Shown one piece after another: positions 5,460 to 55,745 of a DNA stretch of 64,000 nt; positions within the stretch are counted from its first letter, which is position 1; every line of letters starts with the position of its first letter. This stretch comes from Eledone cirrhosa (Eukaryota), in NCBI GenBank assembly GCA_964016885.1, contig OZ024748.1:2232001-2296000 (forward strand), written 5' to 3'. Made by a program: the position numbers and the translations under genes. The notes under the pieces were generated by a model, which was not told the origin of the DNA, did no database searches, and saw only the letters and a program-made list of their open reading frames with translations.

Positions 5460-5598
5460 CAGATAGGGTGTGGTAAAATACCAGGTGGACCTTTCAGGAC
5501 CCCGACGGCCGAGCTCCGGCCGTTTCGATAGCTAGATCTAAACTGGATTTAGCTGTTGAAACGGCCGGAGCTCAGTCGTCGGGGTCCTGAATCTTTTC
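5460..5598. mobile_element. Family A Penelope-like fold-back element in (TA)n
   Basis: Inverted arms ttcaggaccccgacggc...gtcgtcggggtcctgaa carrying the GAAA/stem III/GUC half of the family A HHR. Confidence 0.75.
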
Positions 5599-6937
5599 AT
5601 ATATATATATATATATGTGTGTGTGTGTGTATGTGTGTGTGTACTTAAACACACAGGCGATTTGTGGAAATCTTAAGCTTCACAGGAAATCAATGTATGG
5701 TGTAAATGTTGATATCTTTCAATTAGGCAGAAAAGCTAATCTTTCTAGATGATTAGAGAGAACGTTGCGAGACCGAACATGTTCGGGGTTTTTTTTTTAT
5801 CAAACCCTTTGAGGCGCCATATTATTGCCTAGCCAAGGTCTTCGTTAATTGAAAAGACCTATGATCTGAGAAAAGCACTGGTGGATTGGAGTGGGCCTCC
5901 GTCGGTTTCGACGGTGAGTGTTCCAGTTGATTCGATCAACATAACAGCTTAACAGCTCATGAAATTAGCGTATACGTGGTGGTCCTTGGCCCTAGGACTA
6001 CTTCCCTAATCACCACCATTGGCACGGAGTTGGCTACCCGCAGGAGGTTTGAACCTCGCCAGCTGGAATGGCTTATATAGCGCGTCTCCCCTCACCATCC
6101 CCCGGGAAACTGTCTTCTCTATTCTGTTTCCTTTTCCATATAAAGCGTGAAACTAATAAGACATTTTGTACCTCTGTTTTGTCGTCTTCTTGAACTATAT
6201 ATATATATATATATATATATATATATATATATATATATACATATATATAGTTACAAGAGTAGCATAAACCGGTACTTAACTTTCGTTGAGTTCTGGACCC
6301 CAGCTCATTCAGCCTGTCATAAGAAATATAGAACATAAAAGATTTATATTTTTCTGTCATTGTGGTAACTCTTTATACTAAACTCATCCTATGGACTAAG
6401 CAATTGGCTATTTCTACCAAACTTTTATTACAGTATATATATATATATATATATATATATATATATATATATATATATATATATGTATATATATGGGATA
6501 ACAAATTATCGTTATAGGAAATCCAGTTAGAGGTTGTGAGTACTTTGTATTGTGGATAGTTTTAACGTACGGTGTTGTTTGACTCAACAAGAGGTTTCTT
6601 TAGTTAGGAAACAATTGTTAATATTGTAAATAAAACCCTTTTTGTACTGCTGACCATGTTATTCTTCACTCTTTCACTAGGTATATATATATATATATAT
6701 ATATATATATATATATATATATATATATATATATGTGTTATATACTGTCTTCAACTTTTATGAACGACTTTGCTACAGTACGTAGTAGAATACTACTTGC
6801 GAGATCCATTACACTTTAAATTAGACAAATTACTGTAATCAAATTGAATGGCAACGTTAAATGGACAGAGTTACTTCATCTTCGTCAGATGTTAATTAAT
6901 GGAATTGCTATTCTCTTTCCCCATATCAACTTATTGT

Positions 6938-7050
6938 GGAGACATGTGGCTTAGTGGTTAGGGTGTTTGGTTCACAGTCATTTGGCTGTGATTGCAATCT
7001 AAATCGATGTGTTGTGTCCTTGAGCAAATCTCTTTATTTCACGTTGCCCC
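6938..7050 (+). mobile_element. tRNA-derived CORE-type SINE, 5' part
   Basis: A-box-like tggcttagtggttag; tgtgtccttgagcaa...tttatttcacgttg core shared with copies at 25758, 48583 and 55043. Confidence 0.7.
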
Positions 7051-7159
7051 AATCAACTCGGCAGTAGTGGGTCCAAGTACTGAGGTCTCAACGGCAACCG
7101 GTGCGAAGAGGAAGTAGCCGGACAATCCCCGATATTTGTTGGTCTTCCATTCCTCTGCG

Positions 7160-7312
7160 GGCCGCGGTACCGGGGTTTGTGGCCGCGGTTCCAGGTTTTG
7201 TGGCCGCAGTACCGGGGTTTGTGGCCGCGGTACCGGGGTTTGTGGCCGCGGTACCGGGGTTGTGGTCGCCGTACCGGGGTTTGTGGCCGCCGTACCGGGG
7301 TTTGTGGCCGCC
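7160..7312. repeat. GC-rich 21-bp minisatellite, about 7 copies
   Basis: Unit ggccgcggtaccggggtttgt. Confidence 0.95.
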
Positions 7313-7362
7313 TCTTTATACCAGTAAATAGTAAATTTAGATTAATATTGCCTCCCATTTAG

Positions 7363-52494: not shown

Positions 52495-52755
52495 CCACCC
52501 CACAACCACACTCTGTCCTCCCCCACCCCACAACCACACTCTGTCCTCCCCCACCCCACAACCACACTCTATTCTCCCCACCCCACAATCACACTCTATT
52601 CTCCCCCACCCCACAACCACACTCTGTCCTCCCCCACCCCACAACCACACTCTGTCCTCCCCCACCCCACAACCACACTCTGTCCTCCCCCACCCCACAA
52701 CCACACTCTATTCTCCCCCACCCCACAATCACACTCTGTTCTCCCCCCACCCCAC
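52495..52755. repeat. 28-bp C-rich minisatellite
   Basis: Unit accccacaaccacactctgtcctccccc, about 9 copies; G-run-rich minus strand. Confidence 0.93.
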
Positions 52756-54277
52756 TTTTGCCCAACATATACACACACTAAAATCTTTCTCTATCTATCT
52801 ATCTCCCTCTCCCCCTCTCTCTCTCTCTCTTTATCTCCCCCTCTCTCTCTCTCTCTTTATCTCACTCTCTCTCTATCTCCCTCTCCCCCTCTCTCTCTCT
52901 CTCTTTATCTCACTCTCTCTCTATCTCCCTCTCCCCCTCTCTCTCTCTCTCTCTTTATCTCACTCTCTCTCTCTCTCTCTATCTATCTCTTTATCTCACT
53001 CTCTCTCTCTATCTCACTCTCTCTCTCTATCTCACTCTCTCTCTCTCTCTCTTTATCTCACTCTCTCTCTATCTCTATCACCCCTCTCTGTCTCTCTCCC
53101 TGTCTCTCTCTCCCTCTCTCTCCCTCTCTTCTCTCCCCCCCCCCTCTCTTATATATCACTTCTCCATTCTCTATATGTTTCATGTGTTATCCTTTTCAAA
53201 CTTTCTAAATCATTCTTCATTAATTATTTCTACGATTCAGTCCGTCCTTCATCAGATGAAACGCCATTTCATTTTATTTCATACAAACCTGCAATTTAGC
53301 TTTAAGCAACACATTTCATTGGTCAAAACTTGGCCAATGTTATTTCATTGGTGGAAATTTAAGACAGTAAATTTAAAGTTAATAAATCTATTGATATGAA
53401 GGGATAAAGGAATAGAATTATGGACGGTAAATCTCATTAGACAATATATGTATTGACCTATTTAGAGATTTCACAATAAACATTAATAACTGATCTAACA
53501 CACACTCACACATACACACATACACACATACATTCTAGCTGTCTGGCGAAGTCATAGCTGTTGAATAATGGTTATCACCGAAATATATATTGCAGCGAAT
53601 ATGAATAAACGAAATTAATTTTAACCTGTTGAATTATACTTCCTGTTTTTAAATTACTCCGGAGTAAACAGACCCACCTGCGCACTCCGTTGAGTGCTCT
53701 AACCTGCATACTGAAGTGTCGGTAAGCAACCAACACATACTCAAATTTATATTTATATATATATATATATGTTGTGCCGGATTTATATCAAATGAGGCCC
53801 TGTGCTAGTTATGTTATGAAGCCCCTCACTTGGGCCCTGAAGGCGGTACAAACTTTGGGGGCAGGAAGATGGGCCCTTCCCAGGCCAACGGGGCCCTGTG
53901 CTTAAGCACATCTAAGCACAATTGATTGGCAGACTCGGTAGAGTGTCGCACAAATGCTTTGCGGTATTTGTTTCGGCTCTTTACCTTCTGGGTTCAAATC
54001 CTGCCGAAGTCAACTTTGCCATTCATTTTTCCGGAGTCGATAAAATAAAGTACCAGTTATGTACTGGGGTTGATGTAATAGATTTTTCTTTTCCCTCCCT
54101 CCACAAAATGTTGGCCTTGTACTTAAATTAGAAATTTTATCTCATATCTATACAGCGTTTCCCAGTTGTTACCTCCAGCCTCTCCTCATACTGACTACCC
54201 CAACATCACGTCTACTAACACTTGCTGCTTCCTCCCTTTCCTCTTCCTCCTTATTCTTCACTGTTTACCATTAAATA

Positions 54278-54354
54278 CAGGGTGTCCCAAAAAATGTATA
54301 TACCTTTTGATTAGAATGCTGTTGAAGTGTGTATACATTTTTGGGAACACCCTG
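54278..54354. mobile_element. Tc1/mariner-type MITE
   Basis: TA|cagggtgtcccaaaaaatgtata...tatacatttttgggaacaccctg|TA. Confidence 0.82.
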
Positions 54355-55595
54355 TATTTTAACTCTCTTCAATGATGTAATAGTTATCTCCTTCCTCACG
54401 ACATAAATCTTTGTTTTATTCCACTGTTTGAACTTTGTATTTCGTCTCATGTCTTCTTCGGTTCAATTTTGACAGCATGTAACTCCCTTCCACACTCACT
54501 GAACAATACTTTGTTAACTCTGCATGCAAACCATCCATGATTTTTTTTTCCCTCTATCAACGATTGATGTCTATCTCTCCTCTACTTGCATGCATTACAT
54601 ATGACAATACTTATAATGTCTTTTATATCAATACTGCTAACTTTCTATAACTCTTGATAAGATGAAATATCTTGAATGAACTTTTGACTTCTCTCATTAC
54701 CTCGATTTTTACATTTGTAGTAGATCTTCTAAACGTAATAGTTAAATCTCACTCAAACCACGCCATACTGTCTTTAAAATAAACTGAGTATCATTCACGA
54801 TAGAGCTCAAAGTAAGAAAATGGAAAGATCTGGTTGTATTTACAGAGTTCATTTCGCATGCTCCGCTCAAATCAATACACACGCATGCGCCGACTAAAGA
54901 ACCCTAATCCTGATACAAGCATGTATATTCACAATGAATCCTGTGAATCAGACTAAATATAATATATTTGTAAACTTAGGAAAATCAACAAAGAGAGGAC
55001 AAGACAACGAAAACGAAAAGGCAGAACGAAAAACAATCATATATGGCTGAGTGGTTAGAGAATTGGATTCACAATCGTGAGGTTGTGAGTTCGATTCTCG
55101 GACCAGGTGAGGCGTTATGTCCTTGAGCAAGACATTTTATTTCACGTTTGTCGTTTTACCTCGATTTGCGACCGACAAATAGTATTAACGATTCGAAAGA
55201 CCAATGGAAACATTGTTTCCTCGGTCCAACTTGACGAGCTCCACCCCACTCGTTAAGCGAATGAGGCCTGGGATCTTGTCGATCGACTGCCGACATATAT
55301 ATATATATATATATATATATATATATATATATATATATATATACATATACAGGATTTACCCCCCCCCCCCCACTCTCACTAAGCGTGAACCTAATACCAT
55401 TTGTAACTTGTACTCCTGAGTTGTAGTTGTTTTTTTTATATTCCTATATATATATATATATATATATACAGGATTCCCCCCAAAATGTATATACACATTG
55501 ATTACCTGTACAGGCAATATTTATTAGAATGGTGTTGAAGTATGTATACATTTTTGAGGGACACCTTGTATATATATATATATATATATATATAT

Positions 55596-55745
55596 AACAA
55601 AGGAAGTGTGGTAATGAACCAGGCGGACCATAACGATACTTAGGGTGGGTAATAGGAAAAGAGTCAGGACGGCCGAGCTCCGGCCGAACCGTTCTAGCTG
55701 TCGAAACGGCCGGAGCTCAACCGTCGGGGTCCTGACTCTTTTCCT
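55596..55745. mobile_element. Family A fold-back element (A2)
   Basis: aggaaaagagtcaggac...gtcctgactcttttcct with the GAAAcggc...GUC half-ribozyme. Confidence 0.8.

What the first reader, a model, noticed from the sequence alone, without database searches (positions are those of the whole stretch)
5460..55745. Family A copies fold back at a stereotyped point inside ribozyme stem II
Seen: six copies (5460, 29547, 35615, 36871, 43255, 55596) are hairpins whose turning point lies a few to about 25 nt upstream of GAAA, within stem II, so the 5' core is lost. Two have a doubled hairpin at the turn (29588-29635, about 43389-43430). The short arm usually stops at ...ttttcct followed by AT, where the element's own cctat matches the TA target. 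Inference: reverse transcription stalls at the stem II hairpin, the cDNA snaps back and self-primes, then rejoins the target by TA microhomology. This would be a concrete mechanism for PLE inverted termini.
Basis: partly seen in the sequence, partly recalled or inferred. Interest (0 to 1): 0.72.

Follow-up and report, generated by a model that had tools for sequence, protein, structure and literature searches.

The report
Retrotransposon hairpins turning at a ribozyme
Short retrotransposon copies in this animal DNA are head-to-head hairpins that mostly turn at the same spot of a self-cleaving RNA, and their junctions fit two DNA copies made from opposite target strands better than one copy folding back, which offers a test of how this element class makes its inverted ends.

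Summary
The six hairpins are real, old (arms 5.8% apart) and sit in (TA)n. Family A is a fragment family of a Penelope-like (PLE) terminal repeat with a type I hammerhead. A seventh hairpin (10363-10947), not in the finding, holds the only intact ribozyme (U3:A8 core) and turns at least 189 nt upstream. So 6 of 7 turn 16-25 nt upstream of GAAA. Arms of one copy share private variants, so there were at least five separate events.

Simple snap-back fits poorly. Four of 7 centres are a single base, no clear stem II-primed product is seen, and deletions are arm-specific. The cctat end (7 of 7 within 7 nt) behaves as the PLE repeat/tail boundary: a tail-only copy starts there, and in neighbouring families tail-less solo copies end at the equivalent site.

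Best model (0.55): both target strands prime cDNA at two internal RNA sites; one cDNA pauses in stem II and the other is joined to its end. Snap-back keeps 0.25. Inverted PLE ends, junction palindromes and self-priming are already published; the stem II mapping and junction geometry were not found in my searches.

The parts
5460..5598 (-). Family A hairpin, subfamily 2. Long arm 5460-5544 (-) with a 54-nt deletion; short arm 5545-5598 (+); 3-5 nt centre
10363..10947 (+). Seventh family A hairpin, not in the finding. Short arm 10363-10587 (-), 65-nt spacer 10588-10652, long arm 10653-10947 (+) with a 15-nt deletion in stem II and GAAA mutated to GAGG
10363..10472 (-). Only intact family A type I hammerhead: core UUGACAA (U3:A8) 10454-10460, 55-nt stem II, GAAA 10395-10398, 5-bp stem III with a palindromic GAGCUC in the loop, predicted cleavage after GUC at 10376
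   Evidence: (fold with core unpaired -31.8 kcal/mol against -32.1 minimum)
29545..29757 (+). Family A hairpin. Short arm 29545-29611 (-), one-base centre at 29611, long arm 29612-29757; an inner hairpin in each arm (29588-29635)
35613..35812 (+). Family A hairpin. One-base centre at 35672, which belongs to the short arm; closest relative of the 10363 copy
36869..37064 (+). Family A hairpin, subfamily 2. One-base centre at 36921; 10-nt deletion in the short arm
43254..43482 (-). Family A hairpin. Long arm 43254-43402 (-), 8-nt insert 43403-43410 complementary to the long arm's end, short arm 43411-43482 (+)
55594..55747 (-). Family A hairpin, subfamily 2. One-base centre at 55690; four deletions in the long arm (18, 6, 8, 14 nt), one in the short arm (5 nt)
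25027..25115 (-). Solo family A copy (subfamily 2) whose 5' end lies 18-19 nt upstream of GAAA, the same place as the subfamily-2 turns
30340..30429 (-). Solo family A copy starting within 1 nt of the predicted cleavage site
50188..50287 (+). Solo family A copy starting 2 nt after the predicted cleavage site
42236..42320 (+). Tail-only family A copy starting at the tat of cctat, where the short arms end
40215..40313 (-). Two diverged family A fragments in one TA array: 40215-40251 (stem III to near the cctat boundary, no tail) and 40265-40313 (distal tail)
   Evidence: the alignment of 40215 is weak

Best explanation
Family A copies are short non-coding insertions of a PLE terminal repeat, mobilised in trans (inferred). 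A PLE enzyme, probably a dimer, nicks both strands of a (TA)n target. One strand primes cDNA at the distal RNA start site (3' end of the ~80-nt tail, long arm). The other primes at the proximal site (cctat, short arm), helped by TA pairing. Both copy the same uncleaved RNA toward its 5' end. The short-arm cDNA stops, in this family mostly in or at the base of ribozyme stem II. The long-arm enzyme displaces it from the RNA, reaches its free 3' end and jumps onto it, or the two ends are joined by repair. The result is a head-to-head palindrome with a centre of about one base and a tail on one side. If the long-arm cDNA stops early, the short arm reaches further 5' than the long arm, or only the tail remains. 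Shown here: the anatomy, the end positions, the single-template origin of both arms and the junction geometry. Inferred: priming, pausing, displacement and the jump.
For: Both arms come from one template: mean within-copy arm distance 5.8% (7 pairs) against 15.6% (42 same-arm pairs) and 16.2% (42 opposite-arm pairs) over a 53-column region, with both-arm variants splitting the 7 hairpins into 5 classes. One-base centres in 4 of 7 family A hairpins and in 6 of the 17 inverted insertions examined across seven families. In 4 of those 17 the short arm reaches at least 8 nt further 5' than the long arm: D 42815 (31 nt), E 13718, and D 30165 and E 47650, where the long side is the tail alone. Short-arm outer ends fall within 7 columns in 7 of 7, including the far-turning copy (p 3e-5 for 5 lineages, uniform null); 35615 and 10363 pass an earlier TAT/ATA at +5 to +7. 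Solo tail-less copies end at their family's short-arm site in families B (43000) and G (28560), and a family F solo ends where both arms of the 20958 hairpin end. All six deletions of 5 nt or more seen in the mirrored parts are in one arm only. In vitro, an anole PLE cuts and extends both strands, starts at two internal sites that bound the tail, mostly uses uncleaved RNA and is predicted to be a dimer (PMC11167929).
Against: Nothing here shows the enzyme: no PLE protein domain was found in 106 frames scanned. One-base centres and arm-specific deletions could be altered after insertion. D 30165 has about 6-7 nt of microhomology at its junction, so it may be a later deletion of a full hairpin. 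5460 (3-5 nt loop), 10363 (65-nt spacer) and F 20958 fit snap-back equally well. The 8-nt insert in 43255 needs a local snap-back or a natural loop. In PMC11167929 priming needed no homology and the tail is 30-40 nt, against about 80 nt here. The sample is 7 hairpins from one window, and the natural stem II is known for one subfamily only.
Confidence: 0.55

Rival explanations
1. One reading: a single cDNA stalls in stem II, folds back, copies itself and joins the target at the first good TA match (cctat). In its strongest form, subfamily 2 naturally has a perfect 16-bp stem II, so every snap-back gives the same junction.
For: Automatically gives arms from one template. Loops in 5460 and 10363 fit. 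43255 has an 8-nt self-complementary insert and 29547 is a mirror that two successive fold-backs would give. cctat is the first TAT/ATA after the cleavage site in 43255 and 36871. The three subfamily-2 junctions are the same or one short deletion apart. The subfamily-2 18-mer also aligns without gaps to the 3' part of the long stem II (13 of 18).
Against: One-base centres in 4 of 7. In 35615, whose natural sequence is known from its near-identical relative 10363, the short arm holds a base that the long arm lacks. The subfamily-2 18-mer matches the 5' start of stem II at 7 of 7, and the solo copy 25027 continues GA, not CA; both favour a short stem II. Tail-less solo copies and short-arm-longer insertions in neighbouring families are not explained.
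Confidence: 0.25
2. Inherited junctions: a few hairpin or 5'-truncated source copies that lost the core, and so cannot self-cleave, are transcribed and recopied. The turn position is passed on and says little about pausing.
For: Subfamily-2 junctions are identical or derivable, and the solo 25027 ends at the same place. One arm-specific variant is shared by the long arms of 5460 and 55596, and one CpG-site variant by the short arms of 5460 and 36871. In families B and G the turn also coincides with the 5' end of a solo copy, and in B it lies far upstream of the core.
Against: Four subfamily-1 hairpins have four different junctions and both-arm variants, so one master is excluded. 5460 differs from 36871 and 55596 at a site apparently shared by both its arms.
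Confidence: 0.13
3. The hairpins arose after insertion by break repair at cruciform-prone (TA)n arrays, with fold-back synthesis by a host polymerase.
For: All copies lie in TA arrays, and microhomology deletions are common.
Against: The palindromes stop at a family-specific internal boundary in seven families and never include unique flank. In one search's list the 17-copy SINE-like family gives only pairs of separate copies, not tight hairpins.
Confidence: 0.05
4. Library or assembly artefact (fold-back chimeras).
For: Raw reads could not be examined.
Against: Arms differ by 15 transitions and 3 transversions plus arm-specific deletions, both sides end in TA target, and outer ends are family-specific. 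Chimeras would give identical arms running into flank.
Confidence: 0.02

Closest known systems
Inverted pseudo-LTR with one-sided tail of endonuclease-bearing Penelope-like elements (PMC8557442, PMC3846280; passages read)
   Same: An inverted 5'-truncated copy adjoins the 5' end; the tail is on one side only; palindromes occur at the inverted junction (18 and 38 bp in Adineta); microsatellite targets. PMC3846280 already reads the junction palindromes as self-priming.
   Different: No ORF, whole insertion about 140-590 nt, tail about 80 nt. Turns are mapped here to ribozyme stem II with one-base centres. The 2013 model invokes an antisense template.
Anolis Poseidon element PAc in vitro (PMC11167929; parts 1-2 of 4 read)
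   Same: Hammerhead in the repeat, AT-rich target, two internal reverse-transcription start sites bounding the tail, both target strands extended, uncleaved RNA used.
   Different: The parts read do not connect this to inverted repeats. Priming there is homology-free, whereas both family A ends match TA. Two family A solos start at the cleavage site.
PLE hammerheads, including the U3-A8 core variant of Schistosoma Cercyon (PMC4209133; parts 1-2 of 4 read)
   Same: Type I topology, U3-A8 covariation, palindromic loop 3, and pairs of ribozymes 100-700 bp apart on opposite strands.
   Different: Family A has a 5-bp helix III and a 55-nt two-helix stem II, larger than the minimal ribozymes described.
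LINE-1 twin priming (PMC11702581 passages; the original 2001 paper is recalled, not read)
   Same: The second target strand primes internally on the RNA with microhomology, and two cDNAs are joined head to head.
   Different: L1 inverted pieces overlap or miss by 1-10 nt and the second site is variable. Family A arms overlap by 40-220 nt and the second site is fixed. D 30165 and E 47650 look like the L1 form.
Non-LTR retrozymes (bioRxiv 10.64898/2026.07.22.740005, part 1 of 5; PMC7229834, three passages)
   Same: Non-coding type I hammerhead repeats derived from PLE terminal repeats.
   Different: Those are head-to-tail tandems with a whole ribozyme in each unit; family A here is head-to-head or solo.

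Membership tests
Type I hammerhead ribozyme | Core N3-U-G-A-N-N8-A with a 3:8 pair, then GAAA and a UH triplet | tested here: met
   UUGACAA, GAAA and GUC at 10460-10376(-); the only non-CUGANGA hit of family A among 12 scan rows
Type I hammerhead ribozyme | Stems I, II and III around the core, open at stem I | tested here: met
   Fold with core unpaired is 0.3 kcal/mol above the minimum; pairing probabilities
Type I hammerhead ribozyme | Match to an Rfam hammerhead model | tested here: not met
   0 matches at gathering score in the window; 0 of 6 matches in 10360-10950 at E up to 10 are hammerheads
Type I hammerhead ribozyme | Self-cleavage | not testable with these tools
   Indirect only: 2 of 6 solo pieces start within 2 nt of the predicted site
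Penelope-like element terminal repeat | Hammerhead inside the repeat | tested here: met
Penelope-like element terminal repeat | Inverted 5'-truncated copy at the 5' end | tested here: met
   7 of 13 family A segments
Penelope-like element terminal repeat | Tail at one end only | tested here: met
   7 of 7 hairpins; about 80 nt rather than 30-40
Penelope-like element terminal repeat | AT-rich or (TA)n target | tested here: met
   TA runs beside all 7 hairpins
Penelope-like element terminal repeat | Linked reverse transcriptase plus GIY-YIG ORF | tested here: inconclusive
   None in 106 frames scanned with Pfam, chosen from 267 higher-complexity frames plus three added by hand; the parent may lie elsewhere in the genome
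Penelope-like element terminal repeat | Target-site duplication | not testable with these tools
   Hidden by TA arrays
Non-LTR retrozyme | Head-to-tail tandem units, each with a whole ribozyme | tested here: not met
   No family A direct tandem of whole units in the window
LINE-1-type twin priming product | Microhomology at the second priming site | tested here: met
   TAT match in 5 of 7 short-arm ends
LINE-1-type twin priming product | Inverted pieces essentially non-overlapping | tested here: not met
   Family A arms overlap by 40 nt or more; met only by D 30165 and E 47650
MITE or foldback DNA transposon | Inverted repeats at both termini | tested here: not met
   The repeat stops about 80 nt short of one terminus, and solos have variable 5' ends

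The most novel reading that the evidence does not exclude
These hairpins are a fossil record of the missing step of PLE integration. Both target strands prime on one RNA at the two tail boundaries, the ribozyme's stem II halts the first cDNA, and the second reverse transcriptase catches up and jumps onto its end. One mechanism would then give inverted repeats, the one-sided tail, tail-less solos, tail-only copies and twin-priming-like inversions, with the ribozyme fold setting the element's length even when it does not cleave.
Probability: 0.35. Interest if true: 0.78.

Novelty: new member of a known kind. Interest (0 to 1): 0.5.

Why it matters
How PLEs make their tandem and inverted ends is named as an open problem in PMC8557442 (passage read). 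This window gives countable predictions that separate the two main models: centre length, which arm overhangs at the turn, and whether tail-less solos exist. They can be tested on one genome assembly or in the existing in vitro system. It also suggests that a ribozyme can shape insertions as a roadblock. The element type itself is ordinary, and the evidence is seven copies.

Tried and rejected
Rfam: no hammerhead or other real family; all matches seen are below gathering score and reflect hairpins or microsatellites (150 of 255 rows shown). Pfam on 106 frames: one hit, a LINE zf-RVT piece unrelated to family A. The 10363 upstream sequence has no long open frame. A scan of prokaryotic genomes with a family A pattern gave 0 matches. 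No eukaryotic genome, read set, metagenome or viral collection was available, so genome-wide breakpoint mapping and raw-read confirmation stayed unchecked. ARAGORN found 0 tRNA genes. The inverted-repeat tool was swamped by TA arrays. The first clustering simulation used rough values for 43255 and 10363; it was redone with measured values and only the latter is quoted. Rejected: single master hairpin for all copies; library chimera; MITE; microRNA; tandem retrozyme. Literature: searches returned no paper; some searches returned listings, and in the passages read none maps PLE turning points to hammerhead stem II or applies twin priming to PLEs. The three papers listed were seen only as listings. 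Evgen'ev and Arkhipova 2005, Pyatkov 2004 and Arkhipova 2006 were not read and may hold such models; no supplements were opened. Left out of the 17-insertion tally:'s 31 local inverted hits, pairs of separate copies of family A or the SINE-like family, short hits at 20329 and 22510, and the unanalysed 27506-27909, 48515-49151 and 60139-61094.
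Full report
Setting. The window is AT-rich, microsatellite-dense animal DNA. The one protein-like piece found is a LINE zf-RVT fragment at 18500-19189. Its only animal-named relative among 6 hits is from Argonauta hians at 55% identity, which suggests an octopod genome; this was not tested further.

The observation. The six listed copies are hairpins at the stated coordinates. Inner ends in nt upstream of GAAA, long/short arm: 5460 18/13; 29547 24/25; 35615 16/17; 36871 18/17; 43255 25/27 with an 8-nt insert between; 55596 17/17 after allowing for deletions. 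A seventh hairpin at 10363-10947 turns at least 189 nt upstream and has a 65-nt spacer. Six of seven turns within 9 nt is unlikely by chance (p 5e-6 to 0.006 over four nulls). If the three subfamily-2 copies are one event the range is 0.0006 to 0.065, and with the widest readings 0.005 to 0.27. The clustering is real but rests on four to six events.

The ribozyme. A generic scan allowing any 3:8 pair finds it whole once, in the short arm of the seventh copy: core UUGACAA, a 55-nt stem II of two helices, GAAA, a 5-bp stem III with a palindromic loop, and GUC followed by GGGG. The hammerhead fold is within 0.3 kcal/mol of the minimum. U3-A8 cores and ribozyme pairs on opposite strands are described for PLEs (PMC4209133). 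Rfam does not detect it, and activity is untested. Two of six solo pieces start within 2 nt of the predicted cut, which hints that some templates are cleaved; hairpins need uncleaved or rejoined templates.

Where in stem II. Only 35615 has a near-identical relative with known stem II (1 difference in 45 columns between its short arm and that of 10363). Its arms stop at -16 and -17, just inside the distal helix (-15 to -21). Subfamily 2 (5460, 36871, 55596, solo 25027) has a different 18-mer that matches the 5' start of stem II at 7 of 7 and its 3' part at 13 of 18. The second puts the turn inside a longer stem. I favour the first at roughly 60:40 (judgement). The inner hairpin of 29547 may likewise be a natural 11-bp stem II kept in both arms (-11.8 kcal/mol) or a short snap-back. 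So 'within stem II' should read 'within or at the 5' base of stem II'.

Independent origin, not artefact. Over 53 columns, arms of one copy differ by 5.8% on average against 15.6-16.2% between copies. Both-arm variants define five classes: 5460; 36871 with 55596; 29547; 43255; 10363 with 35615. Only two arm-specific variants are shared between copies, both within subfamily 2. A single master hairpin is excluded, but one master for subfamily 2 is not. Arm differences are 15 transitions and 3 transversions, as expected of ageing in a genome and not of library chimeras.

Testing snap-back. Self-priming of the long-arm cDNA requires a loop of at least 3 nt of long-arm sequence (established hairpin geometry). 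Four of seven centres are one base (29547, 35615, 36871, 55596), and in 35615 that base is from the short arm. 5460 and 10363 fit snap-back; 43255 carries an 8-nt insert that looks like a brief snap-back or a natural loop. Deletions of 5 nt or more in the mirrored parts are all one-armed: 10363 (15 nt), 55596 (18 and 6 nt long arm, 5 nt short arm), 5460 (54 nt) and 36871 (10 nt). 55596 has five deletions but only 2 substitutions in about 35 aligned bases between arms, which suggests they date from insertion, though later loss cannot be excluded.

The cctat end. All seven short arms end within 7 columns (+15 to +21 after the cut), five exactly at cctat, including the copy with the distant turn. 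The long arms run on about 80 nt to a second TA-matching end. A tail-only copy starts at the same boundary (42236). Neighbouring families show the same plan. In B and G a solo copy without tail ends where the short arm ends. In D 42815 and E 13718 the short arm reaches 31 and about 8 nt further 5' than the long arm. In D 30165 and E 47650 an inverted short arm is joined straight to the tail; the D case has 6-7 nt of microhomology and could be a later deletion. Across 17 inverted insertions examined, 6 have one-base centres and 4 have a short arm that overhangs by 8 nt or more. In B and G the turn coincides with a solo copy's 5' end and is not in a stem II, so stem II is not the general cause of turning.

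Most likely mechanism. An anole PLE protein nicks and extends both target strands, starts at two internal RNA sites that bound the tail, mostly uses uncleaved RNA and is predicted to be a dimer (PMC11167929). Applying this, the short arm is a second cDNA primed at the proximal site and the long arm is primed at the distal site on the same RNA. The short-arm cDNA stops, in family A mostly around stem II. The long-arm enzyme displaces it and meets its 3' end, then jumps onto it or is joined by repair, which gives near-blunt palindromes without needing two stops to coincide. End-to-end template jumping by R2 and group II intron enzymes is recalled, not read here. Early stops of the long-arm cDNA give overhanging short arms, tail-plus-inversion forms and tail-only copies. 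Confidence 0.55; snap-back 0.25; inherited junctions 0.13; later repair 0.05; artefact 0.02. The first three can coexist.

Relation to what is known. Inverted 5'-truncated copies with a one-sided tail are the standard PLE plan and their origin is called open (PMC8557442). Palindromes at the inverted junction and self-priming were proposed in 2013 (PMC3846280). Twin priming is established for LINE-1 (PMC11702581). Family A works like a non-autonomous PLE repeat and meets the structural tests, but no parent ORF was found, so membership is likely rather than shown. It is not a tandem retrozyme or a MITE. In nine searches and the passages read I found no mapping of PLE turns to stem II and no two-primer account of PLE inverted ends; several older PLE papers and all supplements were not seen.

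Verdict. The element is a new member of a known kind. The junction data make an open question testable. Interest 0.5.

Noticed in passing
window 3150-3390(+), 29800-30160, 43000-43195(-), 9860-10010(+), 13340-13500(-): Hammerhead family B (canonical core, TATATA loop III). The hairpin at 29854-30150 has a one-base centre at 30034, where the solo at 3150 also starts; the solo at 43000 lacks the tail.
   Followed up: partly
window 13910-14560: Hammerhead family C: inverted pair with whole ribozymes in both arms (11-bp stem II), a spacer holding microsatellites, and a tail on the right arm only.
   Followed up: partly
window 15030-15235, 30169-30275, 42815-42980: Hammerhead family D: one hairpin turning 5 nt before the core with a 3-nt centre, one inverted short arm joined straight to the tail, and one copy whose short arm overhangs by 31 nt.
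   Followed up: partly
window 13700-13895, 47653-47862, 59517-60090: Family E, no hammerhead detected: same hairpin-plus-tail plan; at 47726 the inverted arm joins the tail through a TA overlap.
   Followed up: partly
window 25173-25560 and 28560-28745: Family G: a very young 176-bp palindrome (99.7% identical arms) with a one-base centre at 25349, and a tail-less solo ending at the short-arm site. No hammerhead detected.
   Followed up: partly
window 10890, 11973, 15072, 15708, 30221, 35752, 42261, 43302, 50230 and six more: The motif GTATYGAGTAC occurs 15 times (2.8 expected), mostly in the tails of families A, D and F. It may be a shared protein-binding or priming signal.
   Followed up: partly
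window 11960-12110(-), 20955-21025, 57700-57800(-): Hammerhead-like family F: one copy with tail, one small hairpin with both arms ending at the same site, one tail-less solo.
   Followed up: partly
window 9578(+) and 48515-49151: A further complete small hammerhead at 9578, and a nested inverted structure with CTGATGA on both strands (48953-, 49058+) around an unrelated insert.
   Followed up: no
window 18500-19189(+): 3' fragment of a LINE (zf-RVT domain); the only animal-named relative is Argonauta hians at 55%.
   Followed up: partly
window 20375-62145, 17 segments: Abundant repeat of about 200 nt with a tRNA-like head and a GTTCAAATCC-like box; probably a tRNA-derived SINE (label from recall).
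   Followed up: no
window 27506-27909 and 60139-61094: Two older, widely spaced inverted pairs from other repeat families.
   Followed up: no
window 40320-42235: A 1.9-kb degenerate TA array bounded by family A fragments on both sides.
   Followed up: no
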